In this document: positions 29,633 to 48,448 of the stretch, in pieces | How positions within the stretch are numbered: position 1 is the stretch's first letter | How the letters are laid out: each line of letters begins with the position of its first letter | Origin: an uncultured Solirubrobacterales bacterium | GTDB lineage: Bacteria; Actinomycetota; Thermoleophilia; Solirubrobacterales; 70-9 | Direction of reading: 5' to 3' | Length of the DNA: 64,000 nt | NCBI GenBank assembly: GCA_963841525.1 | Contig: CAWJDA010000023.1 | Location: 76,563-140,562, forward strand | Made by a program: the position numbers and the translations under genes | Notes under the pieces: model-generated | What the model was told of the DNA's origin: nothing | The model's database searches: none | Seen by the model: the letters and a program-made list of their open reading frames with translations, nothing else

Positions 29633-30100
29633 CTAGGCAATTTGCGTGGCGAGTCCGGGCGACTGACCGCCCCGGACAACGGCGGCTAGATCGTCGGGCG
29701 TCCAACGACTGAGTTCATAATCACGCGCATAGCGAACCCTGAGGCGCTGATTGTTTTGAGTTGGCTTGAGCCGTAGACGACCTTCGAATCCCGCCATCTC
29801 ACGGACGGGCACGAGATAGACCGTGGAATTCCAGGGCGCAAGAACCCCAAAGATGTCCGCCAACCCGAGATAGGAAAGGCGCCCGCGGCCGTGATCCGTC
29901 ATTCGGCTGTTGAAGACGAGGCAGCCGGGCGCTTCCCGGGCGGTCTTGCACTGGACCCGCAGAAATTCTCCGCCGGGTAGGCGAACCACTAGGTCATAGG
30001 GCTGACCCTCCCCAAACGGAACCAGAACATCGAATCCCCGCCCAACGAACGCACTCAGAATCGCTGCTTCGGCGGCGTTCCCCTTCGCCAGCGTTTCCAT
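29633..30100 (-). CDS. PD-(D/E)XK endonuclease-like protein (group-I-intron-associated type)
   Basis: 155 aa, KGNAAEAAILSAFVGRGFDVLVPFGEGQPYDLVVRLPGGEFLRVQCKTA. Family assignment is by motif recall only. Confidence 0.55.
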   Translation of the reverse strand: METLAKGNAAEAAILSAFVGRGFDVLVPFGEGQPYDLVVRLPGGEFLRVQCKTAREAPGCLVFNSRMTDHGRGRLSYLGLADIFGVLAPWNSTVYLVPVREMAGFEGRLRLKPTQNNQRLRVRYARDYELSRWTPDDLAAVVRGGQSPGLATQIA

Positions 30101-30181
30101 CCCACTGAAAGTACGACGACGGTCGGACGAACATACGTTCGTATGGCACGGCCGCCTTTCGGGTTAAGGTGATCAGGTCCC

Positions 30182-30255
30182 GCGCCCGTAGCTCAGCTGG
30201 ATAGAGCGTCGCCCTCCGGAGGCGAAGGCCGCAGGTTCGAATCCTGCCGGGCGCG
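30182..30255 (+). tRNA. tRNA-Arg (anticodon CCG), no encoded CCA
   Basis: GCGCCCG TA GCTC AGCTGGATA GAGC G TCGCC CTCCGGA GGCGA AGGCC GCAGG TTCGAAT CCTGC CGGGCGC G. Cloverleaf folded by hand. Confidence 0.95.
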
Positions 30256-30263
30256 TCTTGGAG

Positions 30264-30857
30264 TCAGCGCGGTTCGCGCCACATCGTGGTGACGACGTGC
30301 CGCTCGTCAGGGGTCCAGAACTCGGTGCGCGGCTCGAACCCTTGCCGCTCGTACCGCGGGTTGTTGTCCGGGTTGGTCGACTCCAGGTAAACGGGCTTCC
30401 CCTCCCGGTCCGCCTCGGCAGCCACCTCCGCGAGCAGGCCCATCCCGAGCCCCCGCCCACGGCTGGCCGGGTGGGTGCCGAGGAAGCTGACGTAGTAGAA
30501 GGGCGGGCCTTCCGGGACGGCGGCCTCGAAGCGCTCGATCGTCTGCATGACCGCGTCCGCATGCTGGCCGAGAGCGCTGTTCAGGAAGGGCTCGATCCTC
30601 GCCTCGGTCTCCTCGGTCAGCTCAGGCTTTCCGGGGTCGGTGTAGACGATCGCGGCCGAGGCGCGATCGTCGGCGATCAGGACCGACCCGTTCGGCAGCG
30701 AGCTCTCAACGTAGAAGCCGAACATCGTCGCCTGCTGTCCTCGACGCGCCTCGGGATCCGGGAAGGCCCACGACCAGAGCGGGTCGTCGTAGAACGCGGC
30801 GCTGATGGTTCCGACGACTGCGGCGTAGTCGGCCTCGGTCGCGACCCTGGCAGCCAT
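30264..30857 (-). CDS. GNAT family N-acetyltransferase
   Basis: 197 aa, VSFLGTHPASRGRGLGMGLLAEV...ESTNPDNNPRYERQGF. Confidence 0.85.
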   Translation of the reverse strand: MAARVATEADYAAVVGTISAAFYDDPLWSWAFPDPEARRGQQATMFGFYVESSLPNGSVLIADDRASAAIVYTDPGKPELTEETEARIEPFLNSALGQHADAVMQTIERFEAAVPEGPPFYYVSFLGTHPASRGRGLGMGLLAEVAAEADREGKPVYLESTNPDNNPRYERQGFEPRTEFWTPDERHVVTTMWREPR

Positions 30858-30876
30858 CCACCGCCCATCCTGGCAG

Positions 30877-31338
30877 TCAGACGATGCAGACGTTCCCCAC
30901 GCGCAGCTCGACGGCGGTGAAGTGGTGCCTGCGGACGGTCGCCTCCTTGCTGTCGCCCATCCAGCAGTTGGGCGGCATCACGAGCGGTCCGTTCACCAGG
31001 GGCTGGGGAGTGAGCTCGTTGATCGCTGCGCTCACCTGGTAGTGACCGCGCGGAAGGCGATAGCGGAACCGCCCGTCGGTAGGTTGGCTTGACGTCATGA
31101 CGGCGGCGTCAACGATGCGGGTCACGGTGACCGTCAACCCGGCACCGGTGTAGAGCGGCGCCGGCGGTGGGGGCTCGGCACAGGCGCCGTTGCAGGTCGT
31201 GTTGAGGACGACACCCACGATCCCCGAGGGCTTGTGGCGGTGATGTTTCTTCGCCTGGGCGGCGGCGGGAAGGCAAGCCAAAACGATGGCGACCGCCAGG
31301 AGAACCAGAAGTCCTTTTCTCATCGCCCCTCCTTTCAT
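30877..31338 (-). CDS. secreted hypothetical protein
   Basis: Signal peptide MRKGLLVLLAVAIVLACLPAAAQA, then a beta-rich domain with Cys pairs. Confidence 0.6.
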   Translation of the reverse strand: MKGGAMRKGLLVLLAVAIVLACLPAAAQAKKHHRHKPSGIVGVVLNTTCNGACAEPPPPAPLYTGAGLTVTVTRIVDAAVMTSSQPTDGRFRYRLPRGHYQVSAAINELTPQPLVNGPLVMPPNCWMGDSKEATVRRHHFTAVELRVGNVCIV

Positions 31339-31380: not shown

Positions 31381-33846
31381 CTAGCGCCGCCTGCAGAGGG
31401 CGCGGTCGAGCACCATGAGGTTGGTGACCTTCCCGGGCGACCGGAAACGCACGCGGAGGACGCCCTTCTTGGCCGCCCAGGCCTGGCGCCCGATCGATCG
31501 GCCATCGACCCTGACCTCGCACGGCCTGAGCCTGTGGCGCAGCGTGCTCAGCGAGGCGTCCAGCACGATCCGGTGCCTCCTCGCCCGCCTGATCGTCAGC
31601 TCCCACGAGTGCTTGCGCTCCTTCGAGCGCAGCCCTCCGTTCTCGCCGAAGGGAGATCTCGACCTTCCGCGGGGGAAGGCGATCAGATGGAGCCGGTTCC
31701 GGACGTCGTCCAACCCCACCGTCGAGGCCGAGCCATAGCCGGAGAGGGTGTGAACCGTGGGCGGCAGCAACGGCAGGATCGCTCCCGCCCGTACCATCAG
31801 CGGCAGCTGGTCGAGTGGCGCGGGCACGCTGACGGTCCGTCCGCCCTTCAGGGTCTGGGCGCGCCGCAGGCGCAGCGCGCCGTTCGCCCCCTGGTAGGTG
31901 AGAGCACGCCAGAAGTCGATCCAATGCCCGCTCGGCAGATAGACGTCCCGCCCAGTCTGCCCAGGCTGGTGCACCGGTGCCGCCAGCAGATCCGGGCCGA
32001 ACAGGAACTCGTCCTCCTCACCTGAGGCCGTGGCGTCCCGGGGGTAGACCAGCGCCAGGTCCCGCATCAGGGGCAGCCCGGTACGCCGGTAGCTCGCATC
32101 CGCCGCCACCAGGTACGGGTAGAGCTGGGTACGCAGCTTCGCGTAGCGGCGCCAGATCGGCAGGATCGGCGGGTCCGTGACCTGTGGCCTCGCGTACTGA
32201 GTGAGCTTGAACCCATTGGCCTCGGTGCGCATCACGCCCGAGACGGCCCCGAACTCGATCCAGCGATCGAGCATCTCGGGGGTCAGCTGTCCGGCGAACA
32301 CGCTGAAGTAGCCGCCGATGTCGGAGCCCCAGCGCGAGATTCCCGACGTCCCCAGCGAGAGCGCCTGCTTGATCGCCGAGTCGAGCCCGTCGTAGCCCCA
32401 GTCCGTCGTGGGATCACCACCCCAGACGATCTGGGCGCAGCGTTGCGTCCCGGTCCAGCCGGAGCGCACGAATGGCGCCAGCGGGTGCGGCGCCCCGTGC
32501 GCGTAGTCGTAGGTGGCGCAGTGGTAGGTGGTCGGATACCGGTTGTGCATCTGTGTACCCGGTGTCCCGTCCGCGGACTTCGCGTCCAGCGGCGTGTACT
32601 CCCCGAAGTCCTCCATCCAACCGTCGTAGCCATGGCCCACGGCCTCACCGACCAGACGGTCCCAGAAGGCTTGCGTTCCGGGCGCGGTGAAGTCGAACTG
32701 GGAGACCGGGCTGAACAGGTTCCCGGTGTTCAGGTTGTAGACGTACGGCGCATTGGCCGCGTTTGTGTTCAGCACGCCCGCCGCGACGGCCTGGGAGTAG
32801 GCGGGCTGATAGCTCGTGCAGATCATCGGGTTGAAGTAGGCGGTGATCGCGTAGCCGAGGTCGTGGAACCCCTCCGTGAATGGCGGTTGCTGGGACTCGA
32901 CGCCCTGCTGGGCTCCGCAGGGCAGATAGTGGAGGTAGGTGTTGACCGCCGAGCCGGGCACGTCGGCGGCGCGCAGTGCCCTCGCCTGGCCGAGCTGGTC
33001 CGAAGCGGTCGGCTGATACCAGGGGCCGAAGACCCAGGGCGCGGCCGGGGCGGGCTGGCGGCCTGTGATCTCGGTGAGGCGGCGCAGGGCGTCGGCCGGC
33101 TCGGGGCCGGCGACGAAGCGAAGGCTCAGTTTCGTCGCCTGCACCTCGACGCTCCAGGCGGACGGGTCCGAGTTGCCAAGGCGGAAGTAGCTCGTCTCGT
33201 CGTTGCCGAGCAGAACCCCGTAGCCGTCGGTGGAGAGCAGCCACGGGACCGGGAAGTAGGTGGCGTCATCGCGCGGGTGCCACCCCTGTGGCGGGATGAA
33301 CGCGCCGATCAGCGCCCTGTCGGCGGGCGCGTAGGGACCGTCCGAGACGTAGTCCTCGACCTCATTGCCGCGCTGATCGACGGCGTTGGAGCGCTCTCCG
33401 AAGCCGAGGAAACGCTCACCCGGCCGCGAGTCGAAACCGATCCCGATGGCGGTGACCCCCGCTGTCGGGCCGGTGACCGATGCGGTCAGCCGGATCACCC
33501 CCTCGCGGTCCGGCTCGAGGCCGACCCGGATCCCACGGGTCGGATCGGTGGTCTCCAGCTGCGCGACGTAGCTGGCGCCCTCCATGCCGCCGGAGATGAC
33601 GCGGGTGGCATGGGACCAGCCCGTTGGGGTGCTGAAGCCGAGCGTACCGGTCGGCCCACCTCCCAGGCCGGGGTTCTCGCTGAGGACGGTGTGGCCCGAT
33701 CGGTCCGTAATCGTCAGATGCCAGGGGTCCGGCTCGACGGCGGCCTGCAGCGGGCCCGAGGACACATCTCCGAACGCCGAGGCGGTTGGAATGAGAAGAG
33801 TCAGTGCAAACGCGGCGGAGAGCCAGAGCCCCCGCCAGGACCGCAT
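31381..33846 (-). CDS. glycoside hydrolase family 31 (alpha-glucosidase/xylosidase-like), secreted
   Basis: 821 aa with a signal peptide, GYDGWMEDFGEYTP and SGWTGTQRCAQIVWGGD motifs. Confidence 0.85.
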   Translation of the reverse strand: MRSWRGLWLSAAFALTLLIPTASAFGDVSSGPLQAAVEPDPWHLTITDRSGHTVLSENPGLGGGPTGTLGFSTPTGWSHATRVISGGMEGASYVAQLETTDPTRGIRVGLEPDREGVIRLTASVTGPTAGVTAIGIGFDSRPGERFLGFGERSNAVDQRGNEVEDYVSDGPYAPADRALIGAFIPPQGWHPRDDATYFPVPWLLSTDGYGVLLGNDETSYFRLGNSDPSAWSVEVQATKLSLRFVAGPEPADALRRLTEITGRQPAPAAPWVFGPWYQPTASDQLGQARALRAADVPGSAVNTYLHYLPCGAQQGVESQQPPFTEGFHDLGYAITAYFNPMICTSYQPAYSQAVAAGVLNTNAANAPYVYNLNTGNLFSPVSQFDFTAPGTQAFWDRLVGEAVGHGYDGWMEDFGEYTPLDAKSADGTPGTQMHNRYPTTYHCATYDYAHGAPHPLAPFVRSGWTGTQRCAQIVWGGDPTTDWGYDGLDSAIKQALSLGTSGISRWGSDIGGYFSVFAGQLTPEMLDRWIEFGAVSGVMRTEANGFKLTQYARPQVTDPPILPIWRRYAKLRTQLYPYLVAADASYRRTGLPLMRDLALVYPRDATASGEEDEFLFGPDLLAAPVHQPGQTGRDVYLPSGHWIDFWRALTYQGANGALRLRRAQTLKGGRTVSVPAPLDQLPLMVRAGAILPLLPPTVHTLSGYGSASTVGLDDVRNRLHLIAFPRGRSRSPFGENGGLRSKERKHSWELTIRRARRHRIVLDASLSTLRHRLRPCEVRVDGRSIGRQAWAAKKGVLRVRFRSPGKVTNLMVLDRALCRRR

Positions 33847-33859
33847 CGGGCGATGTGCC

Positions 33860-34132
33860 TCAGCCGCCGGCCACCGCGGGCAGGATCGTCACCTCGTCGC
33901 CATCGTTCACGGCGGTGTCGAGGCCGTCCTGGAAGCGGATGTCCTCACCGGAGACGTAGACGTTGACGAAGCGGCGCAGGTCCCCGTCCTGGGTGATCCG
34001 CTCGCGAAGGCCGTCGTGCTGGTCGAAGACGGCGTCCAGCGCCTCGCCGACGGTCGATCCCTCGACCTCGAGCTCACCCTCGCCCCCGGTGGCCGCGCGC
34101 AGCTGGGCTGGAATCTTCACCGTGATGCTCAT
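33860..34132 (-). CDS. MoaD/ThiS-family sulfur-carrier protein with C-terminal GG
   Basis: 90 aa, MSITVKIPAQLRAATGG...DGDEVTILPAVAGG then stop. Confidence 0.85.
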   Translation of the reverse strand: MSITVKIPAQLRAATGGEGELEVEGSTVGEALDAVFDQHDGLRERITQDGDLRRFVNVYVSGEDIRFQDGLDTAVNDGDEVTILPAVAGG

Positions 34133-34176
34133 CGTGCGGCGGAGATCTTAGTCATCGCTCCACCCTGGCCGCATTG

Positions 34177-35409
34177 CTACGCGGAGGCAACCACGCCATC
34201 GAACTCGGCATCGAACGCATCGAGCGTGGGCTCGATCTCGTGCATCACGAAGGACTCGCGCACCGCGTCGAGCGTCTTCAGCCCCTCGCCGGTGATGTAG
34301 GCGACCACTCGCTCGTTCGAGCCGATCCGGCCGGCCTCGGCGAGCTTCGTGAGTACGCCGATCGTGACGCCTCCGGCGGTCTCCGTGAAGACGCCCGTTG
34401 TCTCCGCCAGCAGCCGGATCCCCTGGCGGATCTCGTCGTCGGTCACCGACTCGATCACACCGTCGGTCTCGCGGGCCAGCTCGAGCGCGTAAGGGCCGTC
34501 GGCCGGATCGCCGATCGCGAGGCTCTTGGCGATCGTGTCGGGCCGCTGCGGCTTGCAGACGTCCCAGCCCTCGGCGAATGCGGTAGCCACCGGCGAGCAG
34601 CCTTCTGCCTGCGCACCCGAGAAGACGGGCAGCTCACCCTGCACGAGTCCCAGTTCGAGCCAGTCGCGCATGCCCTTGGCGAGCTTCGTGAACATGGACC
34701 CGGAGGCGATCGGCGCCACCACCCGGTCCGGAAGGCTCCACCCCAGTTGCTCGATGGTCTCGAACGCCAGCGTCTTCGACCCCTCCGAGTAGTACGGGCG
34801 CAGGTTGACGTTGACGAAGGCCCAGGGGTGGGTCTGGCTGAGCTCGGTGCAGAGCCGGTTGACGTCGTCGTAGGTGCCGCGGATGCCGACCAGGTTGGTC
34901 CCGTAGATGCCGGTGGCGAGCAGCTTCTGCTCCTCGAGGTCGTAAGGGACGAACACGTAGGAGTCGAGGCCGGCGGCCGCCGAGTGCGCCGCTACTGCGT
35001 TCGCGAGATTGCCGGTCGAGGCGCAGGCGACGGTCTCGAAGCCGAGCTCCTTCGCCTTCGCGACCGCGACTGCGACCACGCGATCCTTGAAGGAGTGCGT
35101 GGGGTTCGCGGCGTCGTTCTTGATCCAGAGCTCGCCCAGGCCGAGCCGCTCGGCCAGCCGGTCGGCGCGGATCAGGGGCGTCAGCCCCGGCTCGAGCGGA
35201 TCGCCGGGCCGCCCATCGAACGGCAGGAAGTCCGAGTAGCGCCAGATCCCCCGCGACCCCGCCTGGATCTTCCGCCGCGCCTCGTCGGGATCGAGGCCCA
35301 AGAGGTCATAGGCGACCTCGAGCGGCCCGAAACACTGCTCGCAGACGAAACGAGCATCGAGCGGGTAGTTCTCCCCGCACTCCTTGCATCTCAGTGATTG
35401 AACTGCCAT
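34177..35409 (-). CDS. threonine-synthase-like PLP enzyme with N-terminal Zn ribbon (candidate sulfur-carrier-dependent homocysteine synthase)
   Basis: From ATG 35409 (SD GAGGAG): MAVQSLRCKECGENYPLDARFVCEQCFGPLEV...NPTHSFKDRV (PLP lysine). The ORF-track start 35580 lies inside the riboswitch. Confidence 0.85.
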   Translation of the reverse strand: MAVQSLRCKECGENYPLDARFVCEQCFGPLEVAYDLLGLDPDEARRKIQAGSRGIWRYSDFLPFDGRPGDPLEPGLTPLIRADRLAERLGLGELWIKNDAANPTHSFKDRVVAVAVAKAKELGFETVACASTGNLANAVAAHSAAAGLDSYVFVPYDLEEQKLLATGIYGTNLVGIRGTYDDVNRLCTELSQTHPWAFVNVNLRPYYSEGSKTLAFETIEQLGWSLPDRVVAPIASGSMFTKLAKGMRDWLELGLVQGELPVFSGAQAEGCSPVATAFAEGWDVCKPQRPDTIAKSLAIGDPADGPYALELARETDGVIESVTDDEIRQGIRLLAETTGVFTETAGGVTIGVLTKLAEAGRIGSNERVVAYITGEGLKTLDAVRESFVMHEIEPTLDAFDAEFDGVVASA

Positions 35410-35422
35410 CGGCTCCTCTACG

Positions 35423-35598
35423 AAAAAACCTCCGGCCGGGCTCGATGTGGGCGGAGGTTCCGTGAGGAGCGCTCTTCCCACATCTTCCAGGCTCTGACCA
35501 GAAACACCTGCTGGAGTTGGCACCTTCCTCGGACTGAGTCCGAGGGGGTTGCCGGGGCTTCTTCGGGCCAGTCCCTCCACCCCTCTTGATGTGGTGAG
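35423..35598 (-). promoter_or_regulatory. SAM-I (S-box) riboswitch with intrinsic terminator
   Basis: Minus strand CCACATCAAGAGGGGTGGAGGGACTGGCCCGAAGAAGCCCCGGCAACC...GAGGAAGGTGCCAACTCCAGCAGG...GGAAGATGTGG. The terminator follows: AACCTCCGCCCACATCGAGCCCGGCCGGAGGTTTTTT. CCCACATC can pair with the P1 3' strand as an antiterminator. A possible extended -10 TGCTATATT lies at 35611-35619. Confidence 0.85.
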
Positions 35599-47584: not shown

Positions 47585-48448
47585 CTAGCGGCGCAGCAAC
47601 GTCCGGATCGTTCGTGCCAACGCAGTCGCTTCGGCCTCGACCTGCCTCCAGGTAAAGCGCAGCACGTCGTGGCCGAGCAGCATCAGGCGAGCATCCCGCG
47701 CGCGGTCCTCCTCGAAGGCGGACCGAGTGCGGTGCGACTCCCAGCCGTCCACCTCGACCACAAGACCCTGAGCGCGCCACAGGAAGTCGACCTCATATCG
47801 GTCGATTCGCACGTTCACCTCCGGCTGAGGAAGGCGGTGGCGCCGACAGAGGGCCAGGAAGAGAGCCTCGAGTTCGGTGCGCGTGCGGTCCACATTGGGG
47901 CGGTCCCCGATCGCGAGCGTGAGGTACTCGGCCTCACGAAGCGCCGAAGCGAGCTTCGTGCCAGGAAGAACATGGCGTAGATCTTCCAGCGTGCGCCCCG
48001 GCGTCGTGACGGGAATGCCCTGGCGGATCGTGCAGTGGGCCGGGGAAAGGGTGAGTGACCGGTGCAGTCGAATCCCCCGGCGCCTTGCCCGGCCACCATC
48101 GCCAGGGACGGTCACATCGATCAGGCCGCCGCCCGAACGGTCCTGACCGTGCGGCGGGACCGCAAGGATCCTCCACAGCCCGGCCGCGCTGCGATGGCTG
48201 AGGACCGCTCCCGCTCCATAGGCAAGCACCGCCGCCATCCACCTGCCCTCATTGCTGATGTTGGGATGCCCTACCGCATAGATGCCGCGATGCATACGGT
48301 GAAGGTGGCCGGCCGCGGCGCGGCGCTTAACTGCGCTCGGATCGAGTCCGCAAGCGTTCAACTGCGGCAATGAAATGACGCCGTGCTGGCGAGCGGCGAT
48401 ACGGGCCACGGCGGCATCCCGACGTTGGTTGGCGAGTTCTTGTCGCAT
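47585..48448 (-). CDS. AbiEi_4-like wHTH + DUF559 (Vsr-like endonuclease fold) protein
   Basis: 287 aa, MRQELANQRRDAAVARIAARQHGVISLPQL...GIYAVGH, C-terminus EVDFLWRAQGLVVEVDGWESH...DARLMLLGHDVLRFTW. Confidence 0.8.
   Translation of the reverse strand: MRQELANQRRDAAVARIAARQHGVISLPQLNACGLDPSAVKRRAAAGHLHRMHRGIYAVGHPNISNEGRWMAAVLAYGAGAVLSHRSAAGLWRILAVPPHGQDRSGGGLIDVTVPGDGGRARRRGIRLHRSLTLSPAHCTIRQGIPVTTPGRTLEDLRHVLPGTKLASALREAEYLTLAIGDRPNVDRTRTELEALFLALCRRHRLPQPEVNVRIDRYEVDFLWRAQGLVVEVDGWESHRTRSAFEEDRARDARLMLLGHDVLRFTWRQVEAEATALARTIRTLLRR

What the first reader, a model, noticed from the sequence alone, without database searches (positions are those of the whole stretch)
33860..35598. SAM-I riboswitch controls a ThrC-like enzyme plus a MoaD/ThiS-like GG carrier: candidate thiocarboxylate-dependent homocysteine synthesis
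Seen in sequence: a textbook SAM-I aptamer (ATCAAGAG..GAGGGA.TGGCCC..GAAGCC..GGCAACC ... AAGGTGCCAA.TCC.GC ... GGAAGATGTGG) with a terminator/antiterminator platform lies directly 5' of the gene annotated by similarity as threonine synthase. A 90 aa beta-grasp carrier ending in GG follows after a 44 nt gap. Established: SAM-I riboswitches repress methionine/cysteine/SAM genes, not threonine genes. PLP enzymes paired with thiocarboxylated MoaD/ThiS-like carriers make cysteine in Mycobacterium tuberculosis (CysO/CysM). A ThrC-homolog plus sulfur-carrier route from O-phosphohomoserine to homocysteine has, to my recollection, been described in Streptomyces (MetM/MetO). Inference: this pair is a methionine-branch homocysteine synthase module, and the default label threonine synthase is probably wrong. 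No adenylating (MoeZ/ThiF-like) or JAMM partner is in the window.
Basis: partly seen in the sequence, partly recalled or inferred. Interest (0 to 1): 0.65.

Follow-up and report, generated by a model that had tools for sequence, protein, structure and literature searches.

The report
SAM-riboswitch-controlled MetM/MetO homocysteine synthase pair
A SAM-sensing RNA switch sits in front of a threonine-synthase look-alike and a small sulfur-carrier protein; together they match the MetM/MetO route to homocysteine described in Streptomyces in 2024, so this is a mislabelled but already known kind of methionine pathway, here in an uncultured soil actinobacterium.

Summary
A full-length SAM-I aptamer (RF00162, 86 bits, E 5e-19) lies at 35477-35595 (-). 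It is followed by an antiterminator/terminator platform, a 410-aa ThrC-like PLP enzyme (34177-35409), a 44-nt gap and a 90-aa ThiS/MoaD-type carrier ending in GG (33860-34132).

MetM/MetO of Streptomyces albulus (Hasebe 2024) converts O-phosphohomoserine to homocysteine with a thiocarboxylated carrier. Its metM gene is reported to carry a SAM riboswitch.

- **Riboswitch:** found upstream of the ThrC-like gene in 62 of 62 related Actinomycetota loci.
- **Carrier:** directly downstream in 76 of 80 related loci.
- **Identity:** 53-59% to riboswitch- or carrier-linked homologues from Actinomycetes and cyanobacteria, but only 34-38% to canonical ThrC.
- **Sequence signature:** 21 positions are invariant in canonical ThrC and differently invariant here.

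**Limits:**
- The S. albulus sequences could not be fetched.
- No MoeZ or Mec partner lies in the window.
- A second, canonical thrC in this genome could not be checked.

Verdict: a new member of a known kind, with low to moderate interest. Its main value is correcting the labels "threonine synthase" and "SAMP1".

The parts
35477..35595 (-). SAM-I (S-box) riboswitch aptamer, full length
   Evidence: RF00162, 86.2 bits vs gathering score 44.4, E 5.2e-19, model positions 1-108/108. The same family is found upstream of the orthologous gene in 62/62 Actinomycetota loci (regex; Rfam). Compensatory changes in P2 and P3 are seen across 26 relatives.
35444..35484 (-). Antiterminator: the P1 3' strand GAUGUGGG (35484-35477) pairs with CCCACAUC (35451-35444)
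   Evidence: This is the minimum-energy structure (-25.5 kcal/mol) of the sub-sequence from the P1 3' strand to the U-tract. It encloses the terminator's 5' arm, so the two folds are mutually exclusive (inference).
35423..35457 (-). Intrinsic terminator: hairpin CCUCCGCC...GGCCGGAGG (35457-35429) plus U6 (35428-35423)
   Evidence: Sequence. It is present in the MFE fold of the whole leader together with a closed P1 (z = -2.8). A hairpin plus a T-run of at least 4 is found in 43 of 63 leaders analysed: the window plus related loci.
35412..35470 (-). Anti-SD GCUCCUC (35470-35464) and Shine-Dalgarno GAGGAGC (35418-35412), paired in the SAM-bound fold
   Evidence: The outer stem of the terminator hairpin in the MFE fold pairs these two segments. 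A second, translational layer of repression is inferred, not shown.
34177..35409 (-). metM-like gene: 410-aa ThrC-family fold-type II PLP enzyme, proposed MetO-thiocarboxylate-dependent homocysteine synthase
   Evidence: PF00291 7e-69; TIGR00260 278.6 bits. It is 53-59% identical to riboswitch- or carrier-linked homologues and 34-38% to canonical ThrC. It carries the 21-position signature that differs from canonical ThrC.
35332..35388 (-). N-terminal four-cysteine zinc-ribbon-like motif (C8, C11, C23, C26)
   Evidence: C8, C23 and C26 are invariant and C11 is at least 90% conserved in 16 diverse relatives. There is a weak Pfam NinF match, 26.6 bits, below its cutoff. The motif is absent from B. 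subtilis, Aquifex, Thermus and M. tuberculosis ThrC structures, whose matches start at query residue 55-57.
35086..35088 (-). Codon of Lys108, the predicted PLP Schiff-base lysine (motif SFKDR)
   Evidence: Invariant in alignment A1. It aligns to the SFKDR motif of solved ThrCs. The catalytic role is assigned by homology.
34696..35079 (-). Stretch holding the 11 sequence-motif positions that differ from canonical ThrC (V111 V112 L135 A136 N202 R204 Y207 S211 A235 S236 S238)
   Evidence: The string VVLANRYSASS is identical in the 13 Thermoleophilia, cyanobacterial and Nonomuraea homologues and differs in one residue in Micromonospora. Canonical ThrCs have GMTSSNRQGNG in 4 of 5, with one residue different in S. 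viridifaciens.
34133..34176 (-). 44-nt spacer between metM-like and metO-like genes
   Evidence: Sequence. No terminator-like site was found there. Soil metatranscriptome contigs of close relatives span the junction.
33860..34132 (-). metO-like gene: 90-aa ThiS/MoaD-type beta-grasp sulfur carrier ending in Gly-Gly (GG codons 33863-33868)
   Evidence: PF02597 2e-17. Closest solved relatives are 4N6E_B (1.3e-25) and M. tuberculosis CysO 3DWG_C (5.6e-22), ahead of MoaD and SAMP1. An orthologue lies directly downstream of the ThrC-like gene in 76/80 loci.

Best explanation
This is a SAM-repressed two-gene operon for making homocysteine from O-phosphohomoserine with protein-bound sulfur. It is a MetM/MetO module of the type described in Streptomyces albulus.

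Regulation:
- When SAM is abundant it binds the SAM-I aptamer and locks helix P1. The downstream terminator hairpin and U-tract then form, transcription stops before the genes, and the ribosome-binding site is also paired with an upstream anti-SD.
- When SAM is scarce, the 3' strand of P1 pairs with CCCACAUC instead. This antiterminator prevents the terminator, and both genes are transcribed.

Chemistry (inferred from the published system):
- The 90-aa carrier (MetO-like) is adenylated and thiocarboxylated at its C-terminal Gly-Gly by a MoeZ-type enzyme encoded elsewhere.
- The ThrC-like PLP enzyme (MetM-like) eliminates phosphate from O-phosphohomoserine and adds the carrier's thiocarboxylate sulfur at C-gamma, where threonine synthase would add water at C-beta.
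- Homocysteine is released, possibly through a carrier-homocysteine adduct cut by a Mec-type JAMM hydrolase.
- Homocysteine then feeds methionine and SAM synthesis, which closes the feedback loop.

Shown here by computation: the aptamer, the alternative leader folds, the two protein families, the conserved cassette, and the sequence separation from canonical ThrC. Inferred from the literature: the substrate, the chemistry and the partners.
For: - **Aptamer and platform:**
- **Switch logic:** it is an OFF switch. That fits a methionine-branch gene. It does not fit a threonine-branch gene, because high SAM should favour threonine synthesis at the O-phosphohomoserine branch point (established knowledge of the pathway).
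- **Literature:** MetM/MetO/MoeZ/Mec pathway and the misannotation of MetM as ThrC. SAM riboswitch upstream of S. albulus metM, and a cyanobacterial homologue 51.6% identical to MetM with a MetO-like neighbour at 47%. B. subtilis ThrC is only 33% identical to MetM.
- **Conservation, riboswitch:** of 80 loci from one genome per species, all 62 Actinomycetota loci carry SAM-I directly upstream.
- **Conservation, carrier:** 76/80 loci have the carrier directly downstream; 2 of the other 4 are contig ends.
- **Same cassette in Actinomycetes:** Nonomuraea has riboswitch, enzyme and carrier. Micromonospora has riboswitch and enzyme.
- **Variable downstream genes:** GH31 here, sugar nucleotidyltransferase/epimerase in others. 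The conserved unit is therefore riboswitch-metM-metO.
- **Identity:** 53-59% to these homologues, 34-38% to canonical ThrC from hom/thrB contexts. The canonical ThrCs form a 98.5%-bootstrap clade that excludes the window protein.
- **Signature:** 21 positions are invariant in five canonical ThrCs and differently invariant in the riboswitch/carrier-linked group across three lineages.
- **Carrier type:** closest to CysO-type amino-acid-biosynthesis carriers, not MoaD.
- **Coexistence with real ThrC:** Nonomuraea has a canonical thrC-thrB as well as the cassette, so the cassette is not that genome's threonine synthase.
- **Transcription:** soil metatranscriptome contigs of about 90%-identical relatives cover the leader and span the metM-metO junction.
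Against: - The S. albulus MetM and MetO sequences and the Hasebe paper could not be obtained. Orthology to the characterised enzyme is therefore indirect.
- In the NJ tree the clade joining the window with the cyanobacterial and Actinomycetes homologues has only 30% bootstrap support. The root (E. coli ThrC) is a long branch.
- The signature positions were defined with the window in the set.
- The one homologue of this clade with reported enzymology outside Streptomyces (Microcystis 'ThrC') showed threonine synthase and deaminase activities in vitro. Its high expression did not raise methionine levels.
- No MoeZ/ThiF, rhodanese or JAMM gene lies in the 64-kb window. No JAMM gene was found next to the cassette in the relatives sampled, including those whose carrier carries 1-2 residues after GG.
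- Whether this genome has a separate thrC, thrB, or a conventional metX/metY route is unknown.
Confidence: 0.8

Rival explanations
1. The enzyme is a genuine, or bifunctional, threonine synthase, and the SAM riboswitch merely tunes flux at the O-phosphohomoserine branch point. The carrier gene next to it is functionally unrelated.
For: The protein passes NCBIfam's threonine synthase equivalog TIGR00260 (278.6 bits vs 167.1). Every database name is 'threonine synthase'. The Microcystis homologue was reported to make threonine weakly and to deaminate threonine in vitro. A second thrC in this genome could not be demonstrated.
Against: - The SAM-OFF logic is the wrong sign for a threonine gene.
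- The carrier is adjacent in 76/80 loci across two phyla.
- 21 positions invariant in canonical ThrC are all replaced.
- Identity to canonical ThrC is only 34-38%.
- No hom or thrB gene is in the window.
- Nonomuraea keeps a canonical thrC-thrB beside the cassette.
Confidence: 0.07
2. The pair makes a different sulfur compound by the same carrier chemistry. Examples are cysteine from O-phosphoserine (a CysM/CysO analogue) or a thio-amino acid for a secondary metabolite.
For: The carrier's closest solved relatives are CysO-type proteins. SAM-I riboswitches also control some cysteine and sulfur genes (established knowledge). The ThrC family includes O-phosphoserine users such as cysteate synthase, matched weakly here (TIGR03844, 79 bits). 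The substrate cannot be read from the sequence.
Against: - The characterised relative of this architecture makes homocysteine from O-phosphohomoserine.
- The cysteate synthase score is far below its cutoff (79 vs 325).
- The cassette sits among housekeeping genes, not in a biosynthetic cluster.
- It is conserved across a whole class, as expected for primary metabolism.
Confidence: 0.08
3. The small protein is a MoaD (molybdopterin synthase subunit) or a SAMP-like protein modifier, and its position beside the ThrC-like gene is incidental.
For: NCBIfam SAMP1 (77.5 bits vs cutoff 60) and the archaeal MoaD subfamily (58.4 vs 49.5) both pass their cutoffs. MoaD and SAMP1 structures are detectable relatives.
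Against: - The bacterial moaD equivalog fails (18.7 vs 66.15).
- No MoaE or other molybdopterin gene is in the window or next to the cassette in the relatives sampled.
- The adjacency is conserved in 76/80 loci.
- CysO-type carriers score 10-13 orders of magnitude better than MoaD.
Confidence: 0.03

Closest known systems
MetM/MetO of Streptomyces albulus (Hasebe et al. 2024, Appl Environ Microbiol 90:e01247-24; known here only through)
   Same: A ThrC-homologous PLP enzyme paired with a small ThiS/MoaD-type carrier. A SAM riboswitch lies upstream of metM. MoeZ and Mec are encoded elsewhere. Databases routinely label the enzyme 'threonine synthase'.
   Different: The host is an uncultured soil Solirubrobacterales bacterium (class Thermoleophilia), not Streptomyces. 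The carrier ends directly in Gly-Gly. Identity to S. albulus MetM could not be measured; it is about 53-54% to the Actinomycetes homologues I could fetch. No activity data exist for this lineage.
CysM/CysO/Mec/MoeZ cysteine pathway of Mycobacterium tuberculosis (CysO-CysM complex, PDB 3DWG)
   Same: A thiocarboxylated beta-grasp carrier donates sulfur to a PLP enzyme acting on an O-phospho amino acid. The window carrier matches CysO at E 5.6e-22 over its full length.
   Different: CysM belongs to the CysK/CysM branch and uses O-phosphoserine. The window enzyme belongs to the ThrC branch. No mec gene is adjacent here. The details of the M. tuberculosis pathway are from my own knowledge.
HcyS/HcyF/HcyD/MetY protein-thiocarboxylate homocysteine pathway of Wolinella succinogenes (Krishnamoorthy and Begley 2011; from my own knowledge, not checked here)
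   Same: Homocysteine sulfur comes from a carrier-protein thiocarboxylate.
   Different: That PLP enzyme is a MetY-type (fold-type I) O-acetylhomoserine sulfhydrylase. Its carrier needs C-terminal trimming, and the partners are clustered with it.
Canonical threonine synthase (B. subtilis 6CGQ, Aquifex 2ZSJ, Thermus 1UIM, M. tuberculosis 2D1F)
   Same: Same fold family and PLP-lysine motif SFKDR. These are the best solved-structure matches, E 5e-58 to 8e-44. Presumably the same substrate, O-phosphohomoserine.
   Different: Only 34-38% identity. The window protein has an extra N-terminal four-cysteine motif. It differs at 21 positions that are invariant in canonical ThrC, including the motifs DRGM, STGNTS, SxNPYR and GNAGN. 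There is no hom/thrB context. It is controlled by SAM.
Microcystis aeruginosa PCC 7806 'ThrC' (PMC12172450)
   Same: It belongs to the cyanobacterial branch, whose members are 58-59% identical to the window protein and share the same 11-residue motif string. It has a MetO-like neighbour.
   Different: Cyanobacterial loci lack the SAM-I riboswitch: 0 of 5 by Rfam and 0 of 18 by motif. The paper assigns threonine synthase/deaminase moonlighting rather than homocysteine synthesis.
Classical S-box (SAM-I) leaders of Bacillus methionine genes
   Same: Same aptamer family, with a terminator/antiterminator OFF switch that uses the 3' strand of P1.
   Different: High-GC actinobacterial host. The predicted fold adds SD sequestration. 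In relatives the platform varies between terminator and translational types, and some aptamers lack P4.

Membership tests
SAM-I riboswitch (Rfam RF00162) | Covariance-model score above the curated gathering threshold over the whole model | tested here: met
   86.2 bits vs 44.4, E 5.2e-19, model positions 1-108/108, not truncated.
SAM-I riboswitch (Rfam RF00162) | Expression platform in which the P1 3' strand alternates between P1 and an antiterminator that excludes a terminator | tested here: met
   The terminator plus U6 appears in the MFE of the full leader. The antiterminator is the MFE (-25.5 kcal/mol) of the sub-sequence. This is a prediction only.
SAM-I riboswitch (Rfam RF00162) | Conserved position upstream of orthologous genes, with base-pair covariation | tested here: met
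   62/62 Actinomycetota loci plus Micromonospora and Nonomuraea. Six predicted pairs show compensatory changes.
SAM-I riboswitch (Rfam RF00162) | Binds SAM and represses expression | not testable with these tools
   Needs in-line probing and in vitro transcription.
MetM (MetO-thiocarboxylate-dependent homocysteine synthase) | ThrC-homologous fold-type II PLP enzyme with the PLP lysine | tested here: met
   PF00291 7e-69. K108 lies in the invariant SFKDR motif.
MetM (MetO-thiocarboxylate-dependent homocysteine synthase) | Closer to characterised S. albulus MetM than to canonical ThrC | tested here: inconclusive
   The S. albulus sequence was not obtainable. Indirect evidence: 53-54% identity to riboswitch-linked Actinomycetes homologues, 58-59% to the cyanobacterial branch (one member of which is published as 51.6% identical to MetM), and 34-38% to canonical ThrC.
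MetM (MetO-thiocarboxylate-dependent homocysteine synthase) | Adjacent metO sulfur-carrier gene | tested here: met
   A 44-nt gap in the window. The carrier is directly downstream in 76/80 loci.
MetM (MetO-thiocarboxylate-dependent homocysteine synthase) | SAM riboswitch upstream (reported for S. albulus metM) | tested here: met
MetM (MetO-thiocarboxylate-dependent homocysteine synthase) | MoeZ (carrier activation) and Mec (JAMM hydrolase) present in the genome | not testable with these tools
   Neither is in the 64-kb window.
MetM (MetO-thiocarboxylate-dependent homocysteine synthase) | Coexists with a separate canonical thrC | not testable with these tools
   Not checkable for this genome. 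It is met in the proxy genome Nonomuraea gerenzanensis.
MetM (MetO-thiocarboxylate-dependent homocysteine synthase) | Converts O-phosphohomoserine plus MetO-COSH to homocysteine | not testable with these tools
   Needs an enzyme assay or complementation.
MetO / CysO-type sulfur carrier | ThiS/MoaD beta-grasp family, about 90 aa, C-terminal Gly-Gly | tested here: met
   PF02597 2e-17. The protein ends in VAGG. Best solved relatives are 4N6E_B and CysO 3DWG_C.
Canonical threonine synthase (ThrC) | Passes the curated equivalog HMM | tested here: met
   TIGR00260 278.6 bits vs 167.1. This explains the default label.
Canonical threonine synthase (ThrC) | Invariant motifs KDRGM, STGNTS, SxNP[YF]R, GNAGN. 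By my recollection of the Thermus enzyme these line the substrate-phosphate pocket; that was not verified here. | tested here: not met
   All are replaced: KDRVV, STGNLA, NLRPYY, ASGS. The window has 0 of 21 canonical states.
Canonical threonine synthase (ThrC) | hom/thrB genomic context, or regulation related to threonine or isoleucine | tested here: not met
   No hom or thrB gene is in the window. The gene is controlled by a SAM riboswitch.
MoaD (molybdopterin synthase small subunit) | Passes the moaD equivalog and lies with moaE or other molybdopterin genes | tested here: not met
   TIGR01682 18.7 bits vs 66.15. No MoaE gene is in the window or among the downstream neighbours scanned in 8 related loci.

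The most novel reading that the evidence does not exclude
The riboswitch-metM-metO cassette may be the standard, perhaps the only, route to homocysteine across the whole class Thermoleophilia. It would share with cyanobacteria and Actinomycetes a ThrC-derived subfamily that has no solved structure. In this reading the canonical phosphate pocket has been rebuilt (VVLANRYSASS in place of GMTSSNRQGNG), and a four-cysteine N-terminal motif has been added that might dock the carrier. The rebuilt pocket would then be what switches the chemistry from beta-addition of water to gamma-addition of a thiocarboxylate.
Probability: 0.3. Interest if true: 0.4.

Novelty: new member of a known kind. Interest (0 to 1): 0.25.

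Why it matters
**Annotation.** The enzyme passes NCBI's threonine synthase equivalog and the carrier passes the archaeal SAMP1 equivalog. Pipelines will therefore keep mislabelling both. Every one of the named database relatives is called 'threonine synthase'.

**Metabolic reconstruction.** Models of abundant, uncultured soil Solirubrobacterales would wrongly show a methionine gap or a duplicated threonine step.

**Distribution.** The survey extends the MetM/MetO route, described in Streptomyces, to the whole class Thermoleophilia.

**Practical discriminator.** The 21-position sequence signature, together with the riboswitch and carrier context, separates MetM-type enzymes from true ThrC.

Tried and rejected
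- **Hasebe et al. 2024.** Tried to read it (PMC11497804); not held.
- **Papers on ThrC phosphate-pocket residues.** Tried PMC3024773 and PMC7050208, plus searches; not held. The pocket assignment therefore rests on my memory.
- **Exact window protein in public assemblies.** Not on record. I used the 95%-identical P0003 instead.
- **Streptomyces MetM.** The protein search seeded with a Micromonosporaceae homologue returned only Micromonosporaceae. The plasmid collection holds only the Nonomuraea copy.
- **Solved structures.** No MetM-type entry exists; only canonical ThrCs match.
- **Promoter scan.** No minus-strand sigma-70-like site was found. The only terminator-like hit (35634-35618) lies upstream of the aptamer in the divergent intergenic region, and I treat it as chance. 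TATATT at 35616-35611 is a possible -10 element, but the TTGACG before it is only 13 nt away, so I make no promoter claim.
- **JAMM or ThiF genes downstream of carriers** (especially those with extra residues after GG). Ten ORFs from eight related loci gave only sugar nucleotidyltransferase and epimerase genes, plus one ORF with no family match.
- **First NJ bootstrap script.** It timed out and was rerun with a faster distance method.
- **GH31 gene as part of the system.** Rejected, because it is replaced by other genes in more distant relatives.
- **MoaD/SAMP reading of the carrier.** Rejected on scores and context.
Full report
**What is in the sequence**

On the minus strand, Rfam's SAM-I model (RF00162) matches 35595..35477 over its whole length at 86.2 bits. 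The gathering score is 44.4 and the E-value is 5.2e-19. The only other Rfam hit in the window is a tRNA.

Downstream of the aptamer the leader reads GAUGUGGG (the P1 3' strand), an anti-SD GCUCCUC, a hairpin CCUCCGCC...GGCCGGAGG, U6, the ribosome-binding site GAGGAGC, and then ATG at 35409.

The whole leader folds with a closed P1 plus the terminator hairpin. The outer stem of that hairpin also pairs the anti-SD with the SD (-86.5 kcal/mol, z = -2.8). Folded alone, the stretch from the P1 3' strand to the U-tract adopts GAUGUGGG:CCCACAUC as its minimum-energy structure (-25.5 kcal/mol). This helix encloses the terminator's 5' arm, so it acts as an antiterminator. The design is the textbook S-box OFF switch.

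The ORF that follows (34177-35409, 410 aa) is a fold-type II PLP enzyme (PF00291, 7e-69). It passes NCBIfam's threonine synthase equivalog (TIGR00260, 278.6 vs 167.1 bits).

After 44 nt comes a 90-aa ThiS-family protein ending in VAGG (33860-34132; PF02597, 2e-17).

**Surroundings**

The window is high-GC (68%). It comes from an uncultured soil Solirubrobacterales bacterium: the closest database proteins, at 95-99% identity, are from such MAGs, and the DNA is found in soil metagenomes.

I used Pfam scans of 40 window ORFs and the precomputed calls of a syntenic 95%-identical locus. The genes found are housekeeping ones: ribF, infB, nusA, rimP, dtd, coaBC, gmk, the pyr/car operon, a GH31 glycosidase, corA, HIT, phosphomannomutase, relA, recJ, secDF, ruvABC and pdxST.

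There is no ThiF/MoeZ, rhodanese, JAMM, MoaE, hom, thrB or metX/metY in the window.

**What is known**

Two papers in the library cite Hasebe et al. 2024.

[quoted passage not shown] A Microcystis paper states that S. albulus metM has an upstream SAM riboswitch. It reports that the Microcystis ThrC-like protein is 51.6% identical to MetM, and that its neighbour is 47% identical to MetO.

A third preprint gives B. subtilis ThrC as 33% identical to MetM.

The original paper is not held. I could not obtain the S. albulus sequences by any route.

**Comparative evidence**

A scan of one genome per species returned 80 loci. Sixty-two are Actinomycetota, nearly all of them Solirubrobacterales, Conexibacter or Miltoncostaeaceae, with best-segment identity of 61-91%. 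Eighteen are cyanobacteria at 59-61%.

- **Carrier:** an orthologue lies directly downstream of the ThrC-like gene in 76 of 80 loci. Two of the four exceptions are contig ends.
- **Riboswitch:** a SAM-I aptamer lies directly upstream in all 62 Actinomycetota loci. Fifty-one were found by a 40-nt core motif and the other 11 by Rfam at 64-88 bits.
- **Cyanobacteria:** none of the five loci tested by Rfam has the riboswitch, and none of the 18 has the motif. This agrees with the published remark about Microcystis.
- **Class Actinomycetes:** Nonomuraea gerenzanensis has riboswitch, enzyme and carrier. Micromonospora coriariae has riboswitch and enzyme but no adjacent carrier.
- **Downstream genes:** these vary (GH31 here, sugar nucleotidyltransferase and epimerase elsewhere). 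The conserved unit is the three-part cassette.

**Is the enzyme a threonine synthase?**

Global identity to canonical ThrCs is 34-38%. The comparison set was Priestia in a hom-thrC-thrB operon, Nonomuraea thrC followed by thrB, and Streptomyces viridifaciens. Identity to the cassette-linked homologues is 53-79%.

In an NJ tree the canonical enzymes form a 98.5%-bootstrap clade that excludes the window protein. The clade uniting the window with the cyanobacterial and Actinomycetes homologues has weak support (30%) and the root is unreliable. I therefore rely more on the signature analysis.

Twenty-one alignment positions are invariant in five canonical ThrCs, including the B. subtilis and Aquifex crystal-structure sequences. 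At each of these positions the 14 cassette-linked proteins share a different residue (at least 13 of 14) across three lineages.

Eleven of the positions fall in four motifs:

| Canonical ThrC | Cassette-linked group |
|---|---|
| KDRGM | KDRVV |
| STGNTS | STGNLA |
| SVNPYR | NLRPYY |
| GNAGN | ASGS |

This gives the string VVLANRYSASS against GMTSSNRQGNG.

By my recollection of the Thermus thermophilus ThrC structures and the 'product-assisted catalysis' work, several of the canonical residues hold the substrate phosphate, which steers water to C-beta. If so, a rebuilt pocket is what a change from beta- to gamma-replacement would need. I could not verify those residue roles with the tools. 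This step is inference.

The proteins also share an N-terminal four-cysteine motif that is absent from solved bacterial ThrCs. Haloarchaeal plasmid thrC genes align from the same N-terminal residues (query residue 2-5) without having the signature. The motif is therefore probably not diagnostic of MetM.

**The carrier**

Its best solved relatives are a 90-aa 'ThiS/MoaD family protein' (4N6E_B, 1.3e-25) and M. tuberculosis CysO (3DWG_C, 5.6e-22). These are 10 or more orders of magnitude ahead of MoaD and SAMP1.

I recall 4N6E as the Amycolatopsis BexX-CysO complex. The tool gives only the generic name.

The bacterial moaD equivalog fails. Oddly, the archaeal SAMP1 equivalog passes, which would produce a second misannotation.

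**Mechanism**

Shown by computation:
- the sensor;
- the two mutually exclusive leader folds;
- the two protein families;
- their conserved coupling.

Inferred from the published system: low SAM allows read-through. MetO is thiocarboxylated by an unlinked MoeZ. MetM replaces the phosphate of O-phosphohomoserine with that sulfur. Homocysteine is released, perhaps with the help of a Mec-type hydrolase.

Soil metatranscriptome contigs from about 90%-identical relatives cover the leader, and some span the metM-metO junction. This is consistent with one transcript. DNA carry-over cannot be excluded.

**Caveats**

- Orthology to the characterised enzyme is indirect.
- The Microcystis homologue was reported to act on threonine in vitro and not to raise methionine levels.
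- The rest of this genome cannot be searched for a second thrC, thrB, moeZ, mec or metX/metY. Nonomuraea serves only as a proxy for coexistence with a true thrC.

**Verdict**

The system is a new member, in class Thermoleophilia, of a kind published in 2024 and already built into a pathway-annotation tool. Its interest is mainly in annotation and in the pathway's distribution.

Noticed in passing
window 31381-33846 (-): An 821-aa secreted GH31 glycoside hydrolase gene starts 13 nt after the carrier's stop codon, on the same strand and with no terminator between them. It may be read through from the SAM-controlled operon. The arrangement is kept in 95%-identical relatives (L001-L003) but is replaced by nucleotidyltransferase/epimerase genes in more distant ones.
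   Followed up: partly
L006, L014, L016, L020, L021, L027, L032, L042, L045, L047 (carrier C-termini): Ten of 74 complete carriers carry one or two extra residues after Gly-Gly (R, C, S, A, E or AR). These would need proteolytic trimming before activation. No JAMM protease gene was found among the downstream ORFs I scanned in six of these loci (L006, L014, L016, L020, L021, L027); the other four were not scanned.
   Followed up: partly
L048:3947-5509: In one Solirubrobacteraceae MAG the ThrC-like gene and the carrier gene lie in a single open frame with no stop codon between them. This is either a natural enzyme-carrier fusion or an assembly indel; the C-terminal residues of the enzyme part look atypical.
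   Followed up: partly
L029, L030, L032, L033, L036, L039, L043, L059, L084, L085 (leaders): The expression platform is not conserved. About a third of related leaders have no T-run and look translational, with hairpins or the P1 3' strand abutting the SD. Several aptamers (for example L030, L033, L036, L039, L059) lack the P4 stem yet still score 64-70 bits on RF00162.
   Followed up: partly
L084 (Micromonospora coriariae LT607412.1, 3162614-3179900): A riboswitch-controlled MetM-like gene has no carrier gene within 8 kb. In this family the carrier must be unlinked or shared.
   Followed up: partly
window 33860-34132 (-): This bacterial carrier passes the NCBIfam equivalog for archaeal 'ubiquitin-like small modifier protein 1' (SAMP1, 77.5 vs 60 bits). 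Annotation pipelines may give it that misleading name.
   Followed up: no
window 29633-31338: tRNA-Arg(CCG) lies at 30181-30257 (+). It is flanked by a PD-(D/E)XK endonuclease gene (29633-30100), a GNAT acetyltransferase (30264-30857) and a small secreted protein (30877-31338). The 95%-identical relatives have different genes here (a metallo-beta-lactamase-fold protein and a 147-aa ORF). This suggests a small variable island at the tRNA.
   Followed up: no
window 47585-48448 (-): A gene with AbiEi antitoxin-like and DUF559 (endonuclease-like) domains lies between recJ and secDF.
   Followed up: no
NZ_LT559118.1 (L085, L089): The 11.85-Mb Nonomuraea gerenzanensis record in the plasmid collection is evidently the chromosome, labelled 'plasmid I', with only 10 annotated features. 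It was useful as a whole-genome proxy.
   Followed up: no
L087 and hits H2-H21: Many haloarchaeal megaplasmids carry a 'thrC' whose match to the window protein starts at query residue 2-5, which suggests the same N-terminal four-cysteine extension. The one copy I aligned (Salinigranum, L087) has neither the canonical ThrC states nor the MetM-type states at the 21 signature positions (4/21 each). Their activity is unclear.
   Followed up: no
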